Assembly (NCBI GenBank): GCA_964604555.1
Contig: CAZRZK010000009.1
Coordinates: 11,261-75,260 of the forward strand
From: an uncultured Pseudobdellovibrionaceae bacterium
GTDB lineage: Bacteria; Bdellovibrionota; FAC87; UBA2466
Reading direction: 5' to 3'
DNA length: 64,000 nt
Below the pieces are notes generated by a model, which worked only from the letters and a program-made list of their open reading frames with translations, had not been told where the DNA came from and did no database searches. Shown piece after piece: positions 37,343 through 43,997 of this stretch (positions within the stretch are counted from its first letter, which is position 1; each line of letters opens with the position of its first letter). Position numbers and translations under genes: made by a program.

Positions 37343-37948
37343 TTATTGGGGCAGTACCCGATGACAATAGGTTAACTCGGTTTGAATGCCACATTTCCCT
37401 TCATTTACCGAATATTTAGGTGATTGAGTCCGTTCTACCAATCTCTGGATCGCCTCATTTTGAGTGGACCCGTAATCGGCCAGATAGAACTTAGAGACAC
37501 CCTCCGGCCTTTGACAATGATAACGGACACTACACCTGAACCAAAATGCGGGGACACTCATGCAGATGGTATTCGCCTGAAACTCATGGGGATCTTTTAA
37601 CTCTACCGTATGATAAGTCTTCCCATTTTTTCGAAACGAGATAAGAACGGAAAATTGCAATCCTTCATCTGCCGACTGCCAAAGAAAATTAAGAGAACCA
37701 GTAGATTTTTCTTCCCAGTGAAGCGCATCCAATTCCGAGGACCGTAAAAAGCGGAGTCGCTCACCATCGGTTAAGAACCGCAAATCGGAGGGGACCATGC
37801 CCTGCTCCAGACATTTTTTTTCATTGTCACTCCAGCTGCCGCGAGAACTGAGCAAGAGATACTCACGACCGCTTTCCGTATCTTGCCATTTTCGATCCAT
37901 CGAGAATGCTGTCAATTGTCCTAAAATTAACCCCAAAATGAAGATCAT
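37343..37948 (-). CDS. Hypothetical secreted Cys-containing protein
   Basis: Signal peptide; no recognised domain. Confidence 0.35.
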   Translation of the reverse strand: MIFILGLILGQLTAFSMDRKWQDTESGREYLLLSSRGSWSDNEKKCLEQGMVPSDLRFLTDGERLRFLRSSELDALHWEEKSTGSLNFLWQSADEGLQFSVLISFRKNGKTYHTVELKDPHEFQANTICMSVPAFWFRCSVRYHCQRPEGVSKFYLADYGSTQNEAIQRLVERTQSPKYSVNEGKCGIQTELTYCHRVLPQ

Positions 37949-38058
37949 ATTCCCCCCCTTGTGCTGGGAAAACTAAAAACCTTCTGGAGAATCGTCAACC
38001 GATGAGAGTGATCCTGACTATATTTCAAAGGCCAGTATCTCATTCAACTGAACAAGGT

Positions 38059-39591
38059 TTACCAAATACGGCCGAACCAAGAGGCCCCGTTTTCGTAGGC
38101 ACCCATTACGAGTGTCTTTCCTGAAATCAGTTGCGATACCCCATAGAGGTGCTCTCCACCTGAAACCAGATCATAATCGACTTGGCCATTCTCTCCGAAG
38201 AGAAGATCCCGTTCCAAAAGCGAAGTCAATCGTACAAGACTGATTCCGCCCGCTCTCTCTCCGCCTACCTCAACACTTCCATCAATCGATAGAGAAAGCG
38301 CGGTCGCTACAAAGCCGGGGATCGCTTCATTCCAATCGACAATCGTCCCTCCAATTGGAAATTTGCGGACCCAAAGCTTGTCATTCACATCACCGACCAT
38401 CCAGACTTCGTTTGCATTGCGGGAATGGGCCGCCCTTAATCGATCTTGCGACCCTCCTTCTAAATCATAGATAAAGGTGGCCGCAGGATCGAAAAGACCA
38501 TTTCCATCAAAAGCAATAATCGCCCAATCCTGTTGAGGAATGGTGCCAATGGTGGCCGCTAAAAACACTTTGCTCTGGATCATCCAGAAAGAATCGATTG
38601 AAGAAATGATGCGACCATCCCAATCGATTGCTAACACACCTTGAGTTCCGAAGGCGGTATCGGTCTCACCCCGAGCATTAAATCCCCAAACCTTTCCTTG
38701 TCCCCCGTGCTCGCCCGCCACCAACATTCGGCGATCATAAAGCTGGACGACTCCTCCTAAGTGAATATCCCCAGAGTTAGAAGAGATCTCTAAAATCCCA
38801 CTGCTTCCAAAACTTCGATCGATCACCCCTTCCTTATCAAAGCGCAATAGTCTAAGAGAGTGGCTCTCGATCGCAACCAACACCTGCTCATCCAATTGGA
38901 GAATCCCTTTTACTTGTCCTAAGTGATCGGTATTGAGTGCGACCCGCGTTCTTTTCTCTAACATTCCTTCATTCGATCTCTTTTCAAACAAAACACCCAG
39001 TTCACTTCCCAGGTTATACTTTCCAAAAAATGCCCACTTCCCATCGACGTAATTAATCTGCCCCCAAAAACTAGAAGAGTCGCCCACAAATTGACTCGTG
39101 TGACCACTCTCTAGCAACGTTGTGTCCCAAGATCCTGGTGCCCCCCAATTTCCACGTCCGGTGAGCTGTACGCCATTGGATTGCCTGAATTGCGTTCCAT
39201 CAAAATAACCGACATAGAGAGATTCATTGATGGGACCGACCTCCTGAGGAGAGAGACAAACCTGTACGGTACACGACAGATTTGGGGCCAAGGTTTGCCC
39301 GCAACTCCCTTCGGTTCCTGGAAAGCTCCCCCCACAAAAGGTGAAATTTTGGCTAAGGGCAAAATCGCCTGTGAGTTGCGTGGCTGTGCCTTGTCCATAG
39401 TTCGTGAGAGTAAAGACCGACTTAGCAGTCCCTTCGATAAAAACGGTTCCCATCTCGACCCGATTTAACGGCGTCAGCTGGACACTTGCTTTCGGAATGG
39501 AGCCCGACTGAGTAGTATGGTTTTCACTCGAACAACTGGCTAAAAAGAGGATATAGAGCAAAGCGATGATGAAAATCTTTAGGTTCAACAT
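38059..39591 (-). CDS. Delta-60-repeat lipoprotein (beta-propeller-like)
   Basis: Lipobox LFLASCS. Repeated D.(S/T)FG..G.(L/V) units (IDRSFGSSGIL, TDTAFGTQGVL, RDLLFGENGQV), as in the delta-60 repeat family. Confidence 0.5.
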   Translation of the reverse strand: MLNLKIFIIALLYILFLASCSSENHTTQSGSIPKASVQLTPLNRVEMGTVFIEGTAKSVFTLTNYGQGTATQLTGDFALSQNFTFCGGSFPGTEGSCGQTLAPNLSCTVQVCLSPQEVGPINESLYVGYFDGTQFRQSNGVQLTGRGNWGAPGSWDTTLLESGHTSQFVGDSSSFWGQINYVDGKWAFFGKYNLGSELGVLFEKRSNEGMLEKRTRVALNTDHLGQVKGILQLDEQVLVAIESHSLRLLRFDKEGVIDRSFGSSGILEISSNSGDIHLGGVVQLYDRRMLVAGEHGGQGKVWGFNARGETDTAFGTQGVLAIDWDGRIISSIDSFWMIQSKVFLAATIGTIPQQDWAIIAFDGNGLFDPAATFIYDLEGGSQDRLRAAHSRNANEVWMVGDVNDKLWVRKFPIGGTIVDWNEAIPGFVATALSLSIDGSVEVGGERAGGISLVRLTSLLERDLLFGENGQVDYDLVSGGEHLYGVSQLISGKTLVMGAYENGASWFGRIW

Positions 39592-39797
39592 TTGGATTCC
39601 TTCCTGGAACTTACCTTCATGCTATTCCTAAAGTGTGGATCAATTTTTGAAAGATCGTGCTCAGCTGAGCATATTTCAAACCAGCTGTATTCAGCCTATC
39701 TATAGGCAAATCTTGGTACCGACATTGCAATTTTAAAGAGCGGAGTGGTGTGCTGGTGTAGCACGAAACGGATGCGAGTCGGAAAATTGTTAAACAG

Positions 39798-41312
39798 ATG
39801 TCAAAACAGTCGTTAATATGTTTACTGGCCTTCGTCATTTTAGGCAGTTCAACGCCCTCTCCTGCCCTCCCTCGCTGCACAAATTTACTCGATGCCTTGA
39901 TTCGAACGGCGGCAAACAGAGGGGCGGAAATGGGTGTCCCGATCCCCGTCGGAGAGCGTATTCTCAAGGATGAAAAGAATCGTCAGACCTATTTGGATTT
40001 GGTGCGGGCCTTTTCAAGAATTCATTCCCTTCCTCATTCGTTCTTTCAAGGGATTATCGACCGGATCGATCACCCTCTCTATTTCTTCGATACCAGAACT
40101 CCTTTTCAAAAGGCGCGTGATAAGTTTTTTTCCCTCTTTACGGGCCGCAAGCATGATCCAGTCTTGGCCGGACGTTACCGATTAGTTGAAGATGTTTTAA
40201 AAGAACTTCAACTCCCCTTTCCCCTTCCGCTCAAAGCATTCATTTCCAAGGCTCTTCTTTCCCATCCCGTGCCAAAGCCTCGCTCAACCGAGAAAGCTGC
40301 TGTCTTTAAACAGATCGATAAAACGATCGACAAAATCATCACGCATCGGGAGCACTTCTCGCTGGCAGCCGCTCTATCAGAACTCGATTTCGTTAAAATG
40401 GTCGACCTCAATGGAAACCCAATCAAATTAGGCCAATTGAACCGTCAAGGACGGAGATTCATTCAAGACAAGATTACTCTTGAGAGCATAAAAGAGACCA
40501 TAAAAAGCTTCTTAAAGGATTTTTATTTGCGCCACGCACCGGTGATGATCGGTCAGTTGCAATCTCCTTCCGAACGCACACCTCAGCAGATCCTACATTC
40601 AAACGTAGAGCATTGGCTGAACGAAAGGAAATTCAGGAACTCTCGATTAAGGAAAATCCTTACCCAGATCATTGAAGAAACCACCTTAGGCGAACCCATT
40701 CCAGAAATCCGGCCTTCGGAAGTCAAACGGAACATTGAAACCCATCTTCAGAAAACGCTCCAACAATTCGCTCAATCTTATCAACAGCTCAATCCGCAAA
40801 TGGAAGCTCCGATTGTCATCAAGACTGATACTCCCTCCATTTCTCCAGTGACCGGAACCACTGTTCCTGCGCCTCGGCTTCCCCATATTCGGAAAAAGAA
40901 AAAAAGAGGCTCATCAAATGACGAAAAGAAGCCTGAGTCGCCTGAAGCTCAAACCTCTCCGTCACCTACGCTGGTCCATGAAAAAGCGACGGGTGTTTTC
41001 CCGATCGAAAACCCGCTCGGCATGACTTTTTCAGATCCCCAGGTTGAAGCGTTTTTTAAGACCGGGAATGCAAGGAATGCGCCGTGGGTCGGCTTAAAAA
41101 CACAGGCAGAACGAAAGCTGAGAACTCTTGCTAAAATCACCGATTTTGCAAGTTTAAAATTATTCCCTAACTTTAAAGAGTATAAAACCAAAGGAGAAAA
41201 ATACTTTGGCTACTATTCCATTCGCATCGATAGACAGTTCAGATTAATATTCAAATGGCGCGACAATCATGTTGTTGAGGTATTGATAGACGATTATCAT
41301 ACTCCTGAATGA
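39798..41312 (+). CDS. Secreted protein with C-terminal HigB/RelE-type toxin domain
   Basis: N-terminal signal peptide, about 400 aa without a known domain, and a Lys-rich linker. The last ~95 aa (from an internal Met at 41022) align along their length with HigB killer proteins (FSDPQVEAFFKTG...KLFPNFKEYKTKGEKYFGYYSIRIDRQFRLIFKWRDNHVVEVLIDDYH). Confidence 0.6.
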   Translation: MSKQSLICLLAFVILGSSTPSPALPRCTNLLDALIRTAANRGAEMGVPIPVGERILKDEKNRQTYLDLVRAFSRIHSLPHSFFQGIIDRIDHPLYFFDTRTPFQKARDKFFSLFTGRKHDPVLAGRYRLVEDVLKELQLPFPLPLKAFISKALLSHPVPKPRSTEKAAVFKQIDKTIDKIITHREHFSLAAALSELDFVKMVDLNGNPIKLGQLNRQGRRFIQDKITLESIKETIKSFLKDFYLRHAPVMIGQLQSPSERTPQQILHSNVEHWLNERKFRNSRLRKILTQIIEETTLGEPIPEIRPSEVKRNIETHLQKTLQQFAQSYQQLNPQMEAPIVIKTDTPSISPVTGTTVPAPRLPHIRKKKKRGSSNDEKKPESPEAQTSPSPTLVHEKATGVFPIENPLGMTFSDPQVEAFFKTGNARNAPWVGLKTQAERKLRTLAKITDFASLKLFPNFKEYKTKGEKYFGYYSIRIDRQFRLIFKWRDNHVVEVLIDDYHTPE

Positions 41313-41968
41313 TACCTCAGCCTAAGATCAAGAACTACCTTTTGTTTATTCTTCTTCTTTACACTCCGGGCTCATGCATCGGTGCCATTGTTTTTCACGG
41401 GAACAAGGGAACTATCTGCAAAAAAGTGGTGGGCATGCTACTTAATCCATGGGCCCATCGAAGCCTCGAAACATTGGTTGAAACACCTCGTTATTATTTA
41501 GTGAAACTCAAAAAAAGCGAATCGATTCATGTATTCGACAAAGTGAGTGGAACGCAATTGGATGACACGATCGAGATCATTGATCTCAATAATACTACTA
41601 TCGAAGGCCCTGGCCATCCCGAACCGACCGCTCACATACCGATTTATCTGAAAAAAGAGGCTCGTTTGATTGGAGGGACCGGTACAGAGGTGAAATATGC
41701 ACTGCTTCGATATAGTTTTGAGCAACTTGGTTTCAAAAAAGTCATGGCCTATATCAGGCCGAACAACACCGCTTCGATCCGCTTGCATGAAAAACTCGGG
41801 TTTAAAATCCTTTCAAGAACATCCAAAGAAATCACTTTAGAATTAAGCCGCGAGGATTTTGAAGCGATTAAAAGCCGCTTTCAACCCGAAGAGACGGGCA
41901 ATTTTCTGCCTCAACGCAAACCTTCCCAACCCAATGGTCAGGAAAAGCCATCCGATGAAAAGAATTAG
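41309..41968 (+). CDS. GNAT-family N-acetyltransferase
   Basis: GNAT motifs A/B (YALLRYSFEQLGFKKVMAYIRPNNTASIRLHEKLGFK). ATGA overlap with the HigB-domain gene. The start could instead be the internal Met at 41435. Confidence 0.6.
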   Translation: MIPQPKIKNYLLFILLLYTPGSCIGAIVFHGNKGTICKKVVGMLLNPWAHRSLETLVETPRYYLVKLKKSESIHVFDKVSGTQLDDTIEIIDLNNTTIEGPGHPEPTAHIPIYLKKEARLIGGTGTEVKYALLRYSFEQLGFKKVMAYIRPNNTASIRLHEKLGFKILSRTSKEITLELSREDFEAIKSRFQPEETGNFLPQRKPSQPNGQEKPSDEKN

Positions 41969-42643
41969 ACCTGCAATAGGCACTTGTGTGGTTGGTTGAT
42001 GAATCGCCCCGCACGATGCCCCCATCGGCTCCCGATTGAAATCATTTTTGGGATATAAAAAGGCAAGGCCGTCCATATCATCTTCTGTCAGCACGGCAGC
42101 GGTTTTATCGGAGATGCTGTAATACATCAGCGCCGACCTATCGCTACTGTGTCCAAGCCCCAACGCATGTCCCATTTCATGGGTCAGAGTGATCGCCAAT
42201 TGCCCTAATTCCAATTGGGAGATCTCCGCTCCACTTCCTTCCTCCGCATTCAAGTAGATCGCACTATAGTCGATATGGCCACCATTCCCCGGACTCACCC
42301 TGGTCGCCGCCGGCACATATTCGGTGTCGACCGAATTGTGGGCACCGATGAGGGGATCACACAAGATGAGCGGAACCTGTGTTGCATTTCCATTACTATA
42401 TTCGGTGTGCCCATCGGTCGCGTCTTCAGAAGCGAGCTCCAATTTCAAACCAGCCCCCGGTGAGCTATTCCAAGTATCGACTCCGTCTTGGATTACCCCC
42501 CTTAAGACCGACTCCTCCACGGTACAGTTACTCGGATTAAAATGGACTCTGAGTCGCATCGACTCCCATCCCTTGATCCCATCGCCAATCAGAGTCCATC
42601 CGAAGGCCATTCCACTCATCCATTGAAATAAAATAAGAATCAT
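41843..42643 (-). CDS. Secreted metzincin zinc metalloprotease (matrixin/M10-like) with C-terminal TM-basic tail
   Basis: HEMGHALGLGHSSD (HExxHxxGxxH) with a downstream Met-turn region, and a signal peptide. ATGA coupling with the upstream OMP-like gene. The C-terminus reads VPIAG + TM + RFALRQK. Confidence 0.7.
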   Translation of the reverse strand: MILILFQWMSGMAFGWTLIGDGIKGWESMRLRVHFNPSNCTVEESVLRGVIQDGVDTWNSSPGAGLKLELASEDATDGHTEYSNGNATQVPLILCDPLIGAHNSVDTEYVPAATRVSPGNGGHIDYSAIYLNAEEGSGAEISQLELGQLAITLTHEMGHALGLGHSSDRSALMYYSISDKTAAVLTEDDMDGLAFLYPKNDFNREPMGASCGAIHQPTTQVPIAGLILFIGWLFLTIGLGRFALRQKIARLFGLKAAFNRFKILAA

Positions 42644-43206
42644 AATTGCACCTCCAACCCAAAATGGGCATTCCATTGTCGACGAGGAGAATAAAAAAGC
42701 GAGACCGTCGAAAGATCGGCGACCAATCGCCAGTTTTGTGAAACAGGAAGTAAAAACCCGAAATGGAGCAGCACTTGGTAGGTAAAGGCGGTTCCACCTG
42801 GAGAATAAAAGGTAGCGCGATCGGTACCATTGTTCAGCACTACTGCCTTATGGGAATAGAGGGCGTAATCGATCTGAAGCCCCGGTCCGATCCGCATCCA
42901 CAAAAAAGAAAGGGACTTCCACAGGAGATCGAGATCCCATTCCCCCCTAAACAGCTTTCCATCGGAATCGGTGGTGCTGCGCCACGGAACCAAAAGCAAA
43001 AATGCGGGAGCAAAGGAAACCTTGGGAGAGAGGGGAAATCCCACCCCTAACTTGAGATAGGGGCTCGTAAAGGCGATATCACTTTGATAATGCGGCTGTG
43101 CGGCAATCCGTTTTTGCACACTGGCAAAATAGGCGCCTCCTTCGACGAAGAGCTGTCCCGCGAACAAATTTGACGCAAAGCATACGGTAAATAGAAGCCA
43201 ACCCAC
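42640..43206 (-). CDS. Putative outer-membrane beta-barrel protein
   Basis: Signal peptide and alternating amphipathic strands with a C-terminal aromatic-rich segment. Confidence 0.4.
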   Translation of the reverse strand: MGWLLFTVCFASNLFAGQLFVEGGAYFASVQKRIAAQPHYQSDIAFTSPYLKLGVGFPLSPKVSFAPAFLLLVPWRSTTDSDGKLFRGEWDLDLLWKSLSFLWMRIGPGLQIDYALYSHKAVVLNNGTDRATFYSPGGTAFTYQVLLHFGFLLPVSQNWRLVADLSTVSLFYSPRRQWNAHFGLEVQL

Positions 43207-43295
43207 TACTTTTCCCCCCGAACCTACCCGTATTAAACGTCTCAGATGGGGGAAGGTAAACTTCTTTTCACAGCCCAGTATGATAAAATAATTCT

Positions 43296-43997
43296 ATGCG
43301 CATCTTGATATTTCTTTTTCTGTCGGCATTTTTTATTTCTAACTCCTTACGAGCGGAGAGCTCTTCCCAAGTCACGGAAAGTACTCGACGCACTGAATAC
43401 TCTCGATCGGAATCGGGCACTCAGTCCAATATTGAAGAGACCGAGACGCTGAAAACCAAAAAGAAAAAGAATCGCCGTCTCTTTGTCACCGAGGATCAGG
43501 AACCGCGCTCCGATGCCGGCATCTTTCATGCCGGTTTTGCACTAGGCGGAAATTTTTATGTTGAACCCAAAGTATCGAAAACGACCCGTGAACCAACGGG
43601 CGATTACTACAAAGATTTTGGTTTCCAAGCCGGTGTCTATTTCGATTATGACTATTCCGAATTGGAAGAGAACATCCCTTTAGGACTGCGCGGAATGGTT
43701 GGATATAAATATATTTTAAATTCGGTCCATGTCTTCGCCTTCGATGGCGCAGTCAGAAGAATGTTCCGCATGGCTGAGAACACCTCTTTTGGATTGGGCA
43801 TTGGGGGTAGTGCCGCGGTTTGGTATCGAGTGGGAAGTGACACGGCCGACGAAGAGGTCTTATTCCTCCCGTCCTTCCTTATCACCGCCGGGTTCGAGTT
43901 CAACCCCTTCATGGTTGACATCAAGTGGCTCATCAACCGTTTCGGACAGGACAGCACCATCACCGGTGTCGAGCTCTCGGTTGGCGTTCGTATTTAA
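43296..43997 (+). CDS. Putative outer-membrane beta-barrel protein
   Basis: Signal peptide MRILIFLFLSAFFISNSLRA, beta-strand periodicity and a terminal ...LSVGVRI. Confidence 0.45.
   Translation: MRILIFLFLSAFFISNSLRAESSSQVTESTRRTEYSRSESGTQSNIEETETLKTKKKKNRRLFVTEDQEPRSDAGIFHAGFALGGNFYVEPKVSKTTREPTGDYYKDFGFQAGVYFDYDYSELEENIPLGLRGMVGYKYILNSVHVFAFDGAVRRMFRMAENTSFGLGIGGSAAVWYRVGSDTADEEVLFLPSFLITAGFEFNPFMVDIKWLINRFGQDSTITGVELSVGVRI

What the first reader, a model, noticed from the sequence alone, without database searches (positions are those of the whole stretch)
39798..41968. Signal-peptide protein with a C-terminal HigB/RelE toxin domain, translationally coupled to a GNAT acetyltransferase instead of HigA
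The last ~95 residues of the 504-aa ORF are an unmistakable HigB killer-protein sequence (YYSIRIDRQFRLIFKWRDNHVVEVLIDDYH and the upstream FxDxxxExFF region). They are fused in frame to a ~400-aa region that begins with a secretion signal and ends in a Lys-rich linker; the upstream part has no stop. An internal ATG at 41022 could also give a stand-alone 95-aa HigB. No HTH-type HigA antitoxin follows. Instead a GNAT gene overlaps the stop by ATGA. Possible readings are: (i) a polymorphic-toxin-like secreted effector carrying a ribosome-dependent mRNase domain, with the GNAT as an immunity or neutralising partner; (ii) a new HigB-GNAT toxin-antitoxin-like pair; (iii) HigB expressed internally from the M at 41022.
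Basis: partly seen in the sequence, partly recalled or inferred. Interest (0 to 1): 0.75.

Follow-up and report, generated by a model that had tools for sequence, protein, structure and literature searches.

The report
Exported protein ending in HigB toxin
A 504-residue protein with a secretion leader ends in a well-preserved HigB-type ribosome-dependent RNase domain and has no antitoxin. It belongs to a rare group of exported HigB-like proteins, and the acetyltransferase-like gene after it is another exported protein with no sign of being its antidote.

Summary

The fusion is not an artefact. A 456-aa relative aligns over residues 1-501 and is intact in three separate sample assemblies.

An exhaustive search of 1.84 billion proteins found a small clade of HigB-like proteins. 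Seven of its eight members, counting the window protein, have a leader followed by a conserved Cys, and all eight share clade-specific residues (W430, D478, a 2-aa insertion).

None has a HigA neighbour, whereas 6 of 6 canonical controls do. None of the relatives with readable downstream sequence has a GNAT neighbour.

The downstream 219-aa gene overlaps the stop by ATGA. It is a divergent GNAT-like protein from a small family whose four members all carry their own leader, and its relatives lie away from any HigB.

Best reading: a Sec-exported HigB-type RNase effector protected by export rather than by an antitoxin. The GNAT as immunity, a HigB-GNAT toxin-antitoxin pair, and an internal start are all unsupported. 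It is a new variant of a known kind (Tox-RelE-like secreted toxins).

The parts
39798..41312 (+). Whole gene for the 504-aa exported HigB-type fusion protein (stop codon at 41310-41312).
   Evidence: ORF list and sequence. It is the first ATG after the in-frame stop at 39759. It aligns over aa 1-501 with P0006.
39798..39866 (+). Predicted Sec-type signal peptide, aa 1-23 (MSKQS / LICLLAFVILG / SSTPSPA, cleavage inferred after Ala23).
   Evidence: Kyte-Doolittle 11-residue maximum of 3.19 at residue 6. Seven of the eight clade members, this protein included, have a comparable leader, and I read a small-x-small site in each. No signal-peptide predictor was run.
39876..39878 (+). Cys27. It lies a few residues after the inferred cleavage site and would be the only Cys of the mature protein (motif C-x-x-hydrophobic).
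   Evidence: Cys positions. An equivalent Cys follows the leader in all 7 leader-bearing clade members.
39879..40790 (+). N-terminal all-helical region, aa 28-331, of unknown fold. It may be a delivery, targeting or pro-region.
40809..40991 (+). Disordered linker rich in Pro/Ser/Thr, aa 338-398. It contains the polybasic stretch RKKKKR (aa 365-370, nt 40890-40907), a possible processing site.
   Evidence: pLDDT below 50. P+S+T fraction 0.39 and net charge +4, computed on aa 338-404. P0006 has a comparable basic cluster, PRAPKRKG.
40998..41015 (+). Junction motif F-P-I-E-N-P (aa 401-406), just upstream of the canonical HigB domain start.
   Evidence: Conserved as FPIENP in P0006 and FPIPNI in P0007. 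Canonical HigBs start after this point.
41016..41300 (+). HigB-type RelE-fold RNase domain, aa 407-501. It includes R482 (equivalent to HigB R73) and the catalytic D499-Y500-H501 (nt 41292-41300).
41022..41024 (+). Not supported.
   Evidence: The residue is not conserved and no SD-like sequence lies upstream.
41309..41312 (+). ATGA overlap between the stop of the HigB-fusion gene and the start of the GNAT-like gene. This places them in one operon and suggests translational coupling.
   Evidence: Sequence. The same junction appears in an independent Logan assembly, L003, which has 1 mismatch over 1131 nt.
41309..41968 (+). Gene for a 219-aa exported, divergent GNAT-like protein. It has a leader (about aa 1-27), an invariant Cys37 (nt 41417-41419), an E-T-P-R motif (aa 58-61, nt 41480-41491) and a GNAT core (aa ~106-190, nt 41624-41878).
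   Evidence: PF13302 at 43.8 bits, covering profile positions 79-138 only. Family alignment A5. AlphaFold2 model at pLDDT 60. Foldseek matches generic GNATs.
41843..42676 (-). Convergent gene for an M10-type zinc metallopeptidase. Its 3' end overlaps the GNAT-like gene by 126 nt. It is context only, and there is no evidence it belongs to the system.
   Evidence: ORF list. PF00413 at E 1.8e-12. Weak match to a myxosortase-dependent metalloprotease family.

Best explanation
The 504-aa product is a Sec-exported, multi-domain toxin or effector whose active part is a HigB-type, ribosome-dependent mRNA endonuclease.

Shown:
- The domain order is leader, ~300-aa helical region, disordered polybasic linker, HigB domain.
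- The HigB domain is intact: it has the fold, a basic surface charge, R482 and the D-Y-H catalytic end.
- The whole architecture is conserved in a distant relative.
- The protein belongs to a distinct, rare HigB clade in which a leader plus one conserved Cys is the rule. No member has an adjacent HigA, and none of those with readable flanks has any other conserved partner gene.

Inferred:
- Export through Sec in an unfolded state, rather than an antitoxin, keeps the RNase away from the producer's own ribosomes.
- The N-terminal region and linker serve delivery, targeting or processing. Release of the ~100-aa domain at the basic linker or the FPIENP junction is a guess.
- The target is the translation machinery of another cell (prey, competitor or host), where the domain would cleave A-site mRNA as HigB does.

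The downstream GNAT-like gene is co-transcribed and probably translationally coupled. It is best read as a second, independently exported protein of the same lineage-specific set of secreted proteins, not as an antidote.
For: HigB identity:
- Pfam above the gathering cut-off.
- PDB sequence match to GraT and HigB.
- D499/Y500/H501 and R482 are conserved. These correspond to D90/Y91/H92 and R73 of HigB (PMC5027501).
- The domain has net charge +6 and pI 9.7, like canonical HigBs.

Real fusion:
- P0006 (456 aa) aligns over aa 1-501.
- P0006 is an intact ORF in three separate sample assemblies.

Clade:
- An exhaustive phmmer search of 1.84 billion representatives found eight clade members counting the window protein. 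Seven have leaders (Kyte-Doolittle 2.35-3.19) and a post-leader Cys.
- Clade-specific signatures: W430 in 8/8, D478 in 8/8 against Asn in 31/32 canonical HigBs, a 2-aa insertion, and loss of the canonical P-P-x-N motif.

No antitoxin:
- HigA probes hit directly downstream of HigB in 6/6 canonical loci, but nothing in the window or in L001-L018.
- There is no conserved neighbour among the clade loci.
- Very short members (N-extensions of 37 and 58 aa including the leader) still lack partners, so a pro-domain cannot be the general safeguard.

Precedent: Zhang et al. 2012 describe Tox-RelE at the C-terminus of signal-peptide ('T2SS') polymorphic toxins.
Against: - No signal-peptide predictor, export assay or activity assay was available, so secretion and RNase activity are both inferred.
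- The His54-equivalent position of HigB is not conserved. It is not conserved in the active toxin GraT either.
- No entry mechanism into a target cell can be named. The N-region has no recognisable translocation or receptor-binding fold and is modelled at low confidence.
- A Sec leader alone takes the protein only to the periplasm of a Gram-negative cell.
- No immunity gene was found, which is unusual for antibacterial secreted toxins.
- The organism is unidentified. The hints of a Myxococcota/Bdellovibrionota-like lineage are all sub-threshold matches.
- Only one relative shares the N-region, so its conservation is thinly sampled.
Confidence: 0.5

Rival explanations
1. The exported HigB-fold domain has been put to a use other than intoxication. 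It might be a periplasmic or extracellular RNA-binding or RNase module, for example for scavenging nucleic acids, or a structural or adhesive protein. The toxin-like sequence would then be an evolutionary relic.
For: There is no immunity or antitoxin gene next to any clade member. The clade has changed residues that are nearly invariant in canonical HigBs: N478D and loss of P-P-x-N and L464. A Sec leader alone does not explain entry into another cell.
Against: The residues needed for HigB catalysis (D-Y-H, R482) and the basic charge are retained under clear constraint across the clade. HigB-family enzymes are known to need the ribosome for efficient cleavage (PMC5027501, PMC6393540), and ribosomes are absent outside cells.
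Confidence: 0.2
2. The hydrophobic N-terminus is an uncleaved membrane anchor and the protein faces the cytoplasm. It would be a membrane-tethered, self-restrained HigB-type toxin, with the long N-region acting as an intramolecular inhibitor that is released under some stress.
For: No cleavage or export was demonstrated. The long helical N-region and linker could mask the domain or hold it away from ribosomes.
Against: The hydrophobic cores are short (about 10-12 residues) and, as I read the N-termini, are followed by small-x-small sites in 7 members. That is typical of cleaved signal peptides, not of transmembrane anchors. Members with only ~15-35 residues between leader and domain have no room for an inhibitory region.
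Confidence: 0.12
3. HigB domain plus GNAT form a functional pair, either toxin with immunity or a new toxin-antitoxin-like module. The GNAT-like protein would neutralise the RNase, by binding or by acetylation.
For: The ATGA overlap implies co-expression in fixed order at the position where higA normally sits. The junction is reproduced in an independent assembly. Both proteins have leaders, so they would end up in the same compartment.
Against: There is no co-occurrence anywhere else:
- The five HigB-clade relatives with readable downstream sequence lack any GNAT relative.
- GNAT-family loci L001 and L002 lack HigB.
- 80 generic GNAT loci lack HigB.
- Neither protein matches a PADLOC model.
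- Acetyl-CoA is not available outside the cytoplasm (established biochemistry).
- The contigs of P0006, the closest relative, end 27 nt or less after the stop codon and start no GNAT-like ORF there.
Confidence: 0.08
4. A free-standing ~95-aa HigB is made from the internal ATG at 41022, and the upstream 400 codons are a separate or fortuitous reading frame. A related possibility is that the fusion is a frameshift or assembly artefact.
For: An in-frame ATG (Met409) lies exactly where canonical HigBs start.
Against: Met409 is not conserved in relatives, and no SD-like sequence precedes it. The upstream region is conserved as protein in P0006, and the FPIENP junction is also kept in P0007. P0006 is an uninterrupted ORF in three assemblies. 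A free cytoplasmic HigB with no HigA would be self-toxic.
Confidence: 0.05

Closest known systems
HigB toxins of type II HigBA modules (P. vulgaris HigB, P. putida GraT; Pfam PF05015)
   Different: It is not a ~92-aa cytoplasmic protein. Here the domain is the last fifth of a 504-aa protein with a secretion leader. No HigA or other antitoxin is adjacent, whereas 6/6 canonical controls have one. There are clade-specific substitutions (W430, N478D, a 2-aa insertion, loss of P-P-x-N).
Tox-RelE domains of polymorphic toxin systems (Zhang et al. 2012, PMC3482391)
   Same: A RelE-superfamily (BECR-fold) RNase domain sits at the C-terminus of a larger protein exported through an N-terminal signal peptide.
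   Different: The window protein has none of the recognisable parts of those systems: no RHS or other repeats, no HINT releasing peptidase and no Imm54-type immunity gene. There is no evidence that its N-region is combined with alternative toxin tips. The domain is of the HigB type, not classical RelE.
Nuclease bacteriocins with BECR-fold RNase tips (colicins E5 and D)
   Same: The overall logic is similar: a long N-terminal region for delivery, a flexible linker and a small C-terminal RNase aimed at the target's translation apparatus. This comparison is from established knowledge and was not tested here.
   Different: Colicins have no signal peptide, are released by a lysis protein and always have an immunity gene directly downstream. 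They cleave tRNA without needing the ribosome. No structural similarity of the N-region to colicin domains was found.
S8-peptidase-associated polymorphic toxins (BetaH toxins; PMC9424270)
   Same: They are signal-peptide toxins in which a basic [R/K]-Xn-[R/K] site between an N-terminal delivery domain and a small C-terminal toxin, often BECR fold, is cut to release the toxin. The window protein has an RKKKKR stretch in the corresponding linker.
   Different: Those systems are from Gram-positive bacteria, with a BetaH N-domain, an operon-encoded S8 peptidase and an immunity gene. None of these is present at this locus.
RimJ/RimL-type GNAT acetyltransferases (Pfam PF13302), for the downstream gene
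   Same: The downstream protein matches the acetyl-CoA-binding half of the fold (alpha3-beta5-alpha4-beta6), including G-x-G-T/S-E and N-x-A-S-x-x-L-H-E-K-L-G-F.
   Different: It has a secretion leader, an invariant Cys and an E-T-P-R motif. Its N-terminal half is beta-rich and does not match the GNAT profile; no alpha1-alpha2 helices appear in a low-confidence model. It is unrelated to the GNAT toxins of TacAT/AtaRT-type modules as far as these searches show.

Membership tests
HigB toxin family (PF05015, RelE/ParE superfamily): domain level | Significant sequence match to the family model | tested here: met
   PF05015 at 32.5 bits (cut-off 27), E 1.2e-7; domain alone 36.4 bits. GraT at E 1.3e-7. 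A profile of the clade against HigB 4mct gives E 2.5e-4.
HigB toxin family (PF05015, RelE/ParE superfamily): domain level | RelE-type alpha/beta fold that is closest to HigB | tested here: met
HigB toxin family (PF05015, RelE/ParE superfamily): domain level | Catalytic residues His54, Asp90, Tyr91 and His92 of P. vulgaris HigB (PMC5027501) | tested here: inconclusive
   The Asp-Tyr-His equivalents D499-Y500-H501 are present and conserved across the clade, and R482 (equivalent to R73) is invariant. The His54-equivalent position lies in a variable loop and is not His. The active toxin GraT also lacks it.
HigB toxin family (PF05015, RelE/ParE superfamily): domain level | Ribosome-dependent cleavage of A-site mRNA | not testable with these tools
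   Needs toxicity assays, primer extension and in-vitro ribosome cleavage assays.
Type II HigBA toxin-antitoxin module: system level | Small (~90-100 aa) stand-alone cytoplasmic toxin | tested here: not met
   The protein is 504 aa with an N-terminal leader, and the fusion is conserved in P0006.
Type II HigBA toxin-antitoxin module: system level | Adjacent HTH-type HigA antitoxin gene | tested here: not met
   HigA probes find nothing in the window or in the subfamily loci, but find HigA downstream of HigB in 6/6 canonical controls. No HTH domain was found in nearby ORFs.
Polymorphic toxin systems with Tox-RelE (Zhang et al. 2012) | N-terminal secretion signal plus a C-terminal RelE-fold toxin domain | tested here: met
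   Leader features and their conservation. C-terminal HigB domain. Export itself is inferred.
Polymorphic toxin systems with Tox-RelE (Zhang et al. 2012) | Repeat or filament region (RHS etc.) and/or a releasing peptidase (HINT etc.) in the toxin | tested here: not met
   No Pfam domain other than PF05015 in any of the 8 clade members. The N-region is predicted to be helical.
Polymorphic toxin systems with Tox-RelE (Zhang et al. 2012) | Cognate immunity gene immediately downstream (Imm54 for Tox-RelE) | tested here: not met
   The downstream gene is a leader-bearing GNAT-like protein that does not co-occur with the toxin elsewhere. Other clade members have unrelated or convergent neighbours.
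Polymorphic toxin systems with Tox-RelE (Zhang et al. 2012) | Polymorphism: the same N-terminal region joined to alternative toxin tips or spare cassettes | tested here: inconclusive
   The exhaustive search found only one other protein with this N-region, P0006, and it has the same HigB tip. That is too few relatives to judge.
GNAT acetyltransferase superfamily (downstream gene) | Sequence match to a GNAT model above threshold | tested here: met
   PF13302 at 43.8 bits (cut-off 25.4) and PF00583 at 28 bits (cut-off 20.7), but only the C-terminal half of the profiles is matched.
GNAT acetyltransferase superfamily (downstream gene) | Complete GNAT fold including the alpha1-alpha2 acceptor-site helices | tested here: inconclusive
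   The model has mean pLDDT 60. Its N-half is beta-rich with no alpha1-alpha2, and its core is canonical. Foldseek TM to GNATs is 0.35-0.5.
GNAT acetyltransferase superfamily (downstream gene) | Acetyl-CoA pyrophosphate-binding loop Q/R-x-x-G-x-G/A | tested here: inconclusive
   G123, G125 and E127 are invariant in the family. Q/R at position 1 is seen in 2 of 4 members, and the window copy reads R-L-I-G-G-T-G.
   None of the five HigB-clade relatives with readable downstream sequence has a GNAT relative. None of 2 GNAT-family loci and none of 80 generic GNAT loci has a HigB. P0006 and P0008 sit on contigs too short to inform.

The most novel reading that the evidence does not exclude
The two overlapping genes could encode a co-secreted pair of enzymes aimed at the translation machinery of another cell: a HigB-type A-site mRNase and a GNAT-type acetyltransferase. 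Acetyl-CoA is present only inside a target cell, so the GNAT could act only there. They would be made by a bacterium of a predatory or antagonistic lineage and delivered without any immunity protein. The single conserved Cys just after each leader might serve as a shared sorting or disulfide-tethering handle. This would be a delivery class for toxin-antitoxin-type toxins that has not been described.
Probability: 0.07. Interest if true: 0.8.

Novelty: new variant of a known kind. Interest (0 to 1): 0.5.

Why it matters
RelE/HigB-type RNases are treated as the standard intracellular toxins of toxin-antitoxin modules. A recent survey of the BECR fold states that RelE-like proteins, unlike colicin-like or EndoU-like ones, are predominantly intracellular.

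A conserved clade of HigB domains that carry secretion leaders and have no antitoxin would show that this ribosome-dependent enzyme has also been recruited as an exported weapon. Export would stand in for the antitoxin.

It would also raise a concrete, testable question: how does a ribosome-dependent toxin reach foreign ribosomes?

In practical terms, automated annotation that labels such genes 'type II toxin-antitoxin system RelE/ParE family toxin' would be misleading.

Tried and rejected
Searches that gave nothing useful:
- Word-indexed homology searches with the 504-aa protein and with the clade alignment returned only the query itself. The second was effectively wasted, probably because low-complexity words swamped the candidates.
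- Two genome-contig scans and one metagenome scan with the HigB-domain alignment found no relative.
- The exact-sequence look-up of the 504-aa protein found no contig.
- Cluster look-up gave no names or accessions, so the source organism remains unidentified.
- Rfam found no RNA genes in the window.
- The AlphaFold database fold library was unavailable.

Ideas tested and rejected:
- The 99-aa gene upstream of the GNAT relatives in L001 is not a HigB. It is the broken N-terminus of a tandem GNAT-like paralogue.
- The 266-aa gene after P0034 is not related to the GNAT-like protein (BLASTP E 1.2).
- PADLOC has no model matching either protein.
- The window has no paralogues of either gene.
- The gene is not flanked by repeats in the window.
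- Promoter and terminator scans were no better than shuffled sequence.
- The small ORF upstream of leaderless P0008 reminded me of an HTH antitoxin, but Pfam gave no hit, so I make no such claim.
- Fold searches for the N-terminal region returned only generic helical matches with large rmsd, and I disregard them.
- The polybasic linker as a furin-like site or nuclear localisation signal was considered and left as speculation.
- Lineage hints (delta-60 repeat, choice-of-anchor D, myxosortase-type protease, TIGR02147) are all below the family cut-offs.
Full report
**What is there**

The window has two overlapping genes on the + strand. The first runs 39798..41312 and encodes 504 aa. The second runs 41309..41968 and encodes 219 aa. 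The stop of the first and the start of the second share the bases ATGA. ATG 39798 is the first start codon after an in-frame stop at 39759. An independent Logan assembly from another read set (L003, 1131 nt, 1 mismatch) reproduces the junction and the whole second gene. GC content is ordinary for the window and dips slightly over 41000-41750. No repeats flank the gene.

**The C-terminal domain is HigB**

- Pfam PF05015 matches aa 411-498 at 32.5 bits (cut-off 27). The domain scanned alone scores 36.4 bits.
- phmmer against PDB sequences finds GraT, the P. putida HigB-family toxin, at E 1.3e-7 over aa 410-501.
- A profile of the closest relatives also reaches P. vulgaris HigB, at E 2.5e-4.
- An AlphaFold2 model built on 40 sequences gives pLDDT ~95 for aa 405-500, with RelE-type topology.
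- Foldseek places it on P. vulgaris HigB, free and ribosome-bound, with target-normalised TM 0.78-0.83.
- Schureck et al. 2016 identified His54, Asp90, Tyr91 and His92 as critical in HigB (PMC5027501). The Asp-Tyr-His end is present here as D499-Y500-H501 and is conserved in relatives. R482, which aligns with HigB R73, is invariant.
- The His54-equivalent position lies in a variable loop and is not conserved. The active toxin GraT also lacks it.
- The domain is basic (net +6, pI 9.7), like canonical HigBs (mean +4.1, pI 9.26).

**The rest of the protein**

- Residues 1-23 look like a Sec signal peptide: a basic start, an 11-residue hydrophobic core and S-P-A.
- Cys27 follows, and would be the only Cys of the mature protein.
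- Residues 28-331 are predicted to be entirely helical, at low to moderate confidence.
- The segment aa 338-398 is predicted to be disordered. Over aa 338-404 it is 39% Pro/Ser/Thr, and it contains RKKKKR at aa 365-370.
- No Pfam, NCBIfam or PADLOC family, and no solved structure, matches the N-region.

**The fusion is real and recurrent**

The word-indexed search found only the protein itself. The exhaustive phmmer search of 1.84 billion cluster representatives returned 74 hits.

One of them, P0006 (456 aa), shares the complete architecture. tblastn aligns residues 1-501 at 27% identity, and the N-region alone gives E about 1e-6 to 1e-9 in small databases. P0006 is an uninterrupted ORF in three separate sample assemblies. 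This excludes a local frameshift or assembly artefact.

Six further hits form a clade with the window protein and P0006:
- P0007, 161 aa
- P0009, 253 aa
- P0034, 306 aa
- P0041, 234 aa
- P0012, 138 aa
- P0008, 112 aa

Seven of the eight clade members start with a hydrophobic leader (Kyte-Doolittle 11-residue maximum 2.35-3.19) in which I read a small-x-small site. A Cys in a C-x-x-hydrophobic motif lies a few residues beyond it.

Compared with 32 canonical HigBs in the same alignment, the clade has:
- an invariant Trp430
- a two-residue insertion at 469-470
- Asp instead of the nearly invariant Asn at 478
- no canonical P-P-x-N motif

It keeps S474, R476, Q480, R482, F485, W487 and D-Y-H. The remaining hits are ordinary ~93-aa HigBs.

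On plasmids and viral contigs, only such canonical toxins match, and only over the C-terminal domain.

**No antitoxin**

Two canonical relatives on plasmids are annotated with a HigA gene directly downstream. I used those two HigA proteins as tblastn probes. A HigA homologue turned up immediately after HigB in all six canonical loci (E 1e-9 to 1e-27). Nothing better than E 0.18 turned up in the 64-kb window or in loci L001-L018.

ORFs on the opposite strand inside the genes have no Pfam domain.

Neighbours of the clade members differ in every case:
- an unannotated 266-aa gene
- a convergent VKOR-DsbA gene
- a 51-aa lipoprotein-like ORF
- a DUF4423 gene
- a 637-aa unknown protein beside flagellar genes

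Members whose N-extension is only 37 or 58 residues, leader included, also lack partners. Whatever protects the producer therefore cannot generally be a pro-domain. Export is the common denominator.

**The downstream gene**

It matches GNAT models above threshold, but only over the acetyl-CoA-binding half (PF13302 profile positions 79-138 of 138, aa 106-166).

It belongs to a small family (P0003, P0004, P0005). All four members have a leader, an invariant Cys, an E-T-P-R motif and the N-x-A-S-x-x-L-H-E-K-L-G-F core.

The model is of moderate quality (pLDDT 60). It has a beta-rich N-half and a canonical alpha3-beta5-alpha4-beta6 core, and it resembles generic GNATs such as SpeG, RimJ and PseH at TM 0.35-0.5.

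Its relatives lie in loci without any HigB. In L001 there are two tandem copies, one of them disrupted. None of the other HigB-clade loci has a GNAT relative, and none of 80 generic GNAT loci from metagenomes has a HigB. For P0006 and P0008 that absence says little, because their contigs are too short to show a neighbour. The linkage seen in the window is therefore unique in the available data. The ATGA overlap shows co-expression, not partnership.

**Internal start**

Met409 sits where canonical HigBs begin, but relatives have L/A/G/S/I/S/Y at that position. No SD-like sequence precedes 41022, whereas about half the genes in the window have G-rich SD-like sequences. Conservation also continues upstream of it: FPIENP in the window protein and P0006, FPIPNI in P0007.

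**Interpretation**

The most economical reading is a Sec-exported protein whose business end is a HigB-type ribosome-dependent mRNase. Export in the unfolded state would replace the antitoxin. The N-region and linker would serve delivery, targeting or processing. The target would be the ribosomes of another cell.

Three steps are inferred, not shown: export, processing and entry into a target.

The main rival is that the exported domain no longer acts as a toxin. Against this, the catalytic residues are retained, and HigB-family enzymes need ribosomes.

Weak hints place the organism among the former Deltaproteobacteria, which include predators: a delta-60 repeat, choice-of-anchor D, a myxosortase-type metalloprotease and a TIGR02147 protein in a related locus. 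All of these are sub-threshold. Linking these families to that lineage rests on my own recollection, not on a tool result. The organism was not identified.

**Relation to what is known**

Zhang et al. 2012 list Tox-RelE among the C-terminal toxin domains of signal-peptide ('T2SS') polymorphic toxins, together with RHS repeats, HINT peptidases and Imm54 immunity proteins. The principle of a secreted RelE-fold toxin is therefore known.

The present protein differs from those in several ways:
- It lacks the accessory features listed above.
- Its domain is of the HigB type.
- It has no immunity gene.
- It belongs to a compact, leader-bearing clade.

A 2026 survey of the BECR fold still describes RelE-like proteins as predominantly intracellular. 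I therefore class this as a new variant of a known kind. Interest is moderate, 0.5. It is unusual for the toxin-antitoxin field and readily testable, but the headline idea of a GNAT standing in for HigA is not supported.

Noticed in passing
L004 1-91 and 1544-1572; L005 4-30 and 1483-1509: The gene for P0006, the only full-architecture relative, is bounded by copies of a ~91-nt palindromic element with 43-nt arms that are 91% complementary. The first 29 nt recur right after the stop codon, 1543 nt downstream. This is either a circular unitig or a gene cassette between REP/attC-like palindromes. The window gene has nothing comparable.
   Followed up: partly
window 41843-41968: The 3' end of the GNAT-like gene and the 3' end of the convergent M10 metallopeptidase gene overlap by 126 nt. 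That is unusually long for convergent genes, so one of the two C-terminal tails may be a read-through extension.
   Followed up: no
window 41843-42000 (- strand; C-terminus of the M10 peptidase): The peptidase ends with S-C-G, a hydrophobic segment (IAGLILFIGWLFLTIGLG) and a basic patch. To me this resembles a C-terminal sorting signal of the MYXO-CTERM type. The only tool support is a weak match (28 bits, cut-off 250) to a myxosortase-dependent metalloprotease family.
   Followed up: partly
window 39876-39878 and 41417-41419; alignments A2 and A5: The HigB-like clade and the unrelated GNAT-like family share the same N-terminal layout: a leader, then a conserved Cys in a C-x-x-hydrophobic motif. 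In the window copies that Cys would be the only one left in each mature protein. This may be a lineage-specific sorting or disulfide-tethering feature, but it remains unexplained.
   Followed up: partly
L001 6897-8891: There are two tandem copies of the leader-bearing GNAT-like gene. The first is split into 99-aa and 228-aa pieces, so it is probably a frameshifted pseudogene. The intact copy has a ~110-aa helical C-terminal extension that the window protein lacks.
   Followed up: partly
L001 1-2230 and L010 6485-8856: The locus of a GNAT-family relative (L001) and the locus of a HigB-clade relative (L010) share neighbours: a VKOR-DsbA fusion gene and a LOG/lysine-decarboxylase-like gene. P0041 (HigB clade) and P0003 (GNAT family) also come from the same sample, SRR25375730. 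The two families therefore seem to coexist in related organisms without being adjacent.
   Followed up: partly
L018 303-467 (- strand): P0008 is the only clade member without a leader. On its 1-kb contig a divergently oriented 54-aa ORF lies upstream, with a sequence (..SRAALDHLLDPENISVTLQTLGKAAKVL..) that reminded me of HTH-type antitoxins. Pfam gave no hit, so this is unverified.
   Followed up: partly
window 37343-39591 and 42640-43997: The locus is surrounded by genes for leader-bearing proteins. One is a 510-aa lipoprotein with sub-threshold matches to an Ig-like choice-of-anchor D domain and to delta-60 repeats. The others (201, 188 and 233 aa) have no recognisable family. The region looks like a cluster of lineage-specific secreted proteins.
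   Followed up: partly
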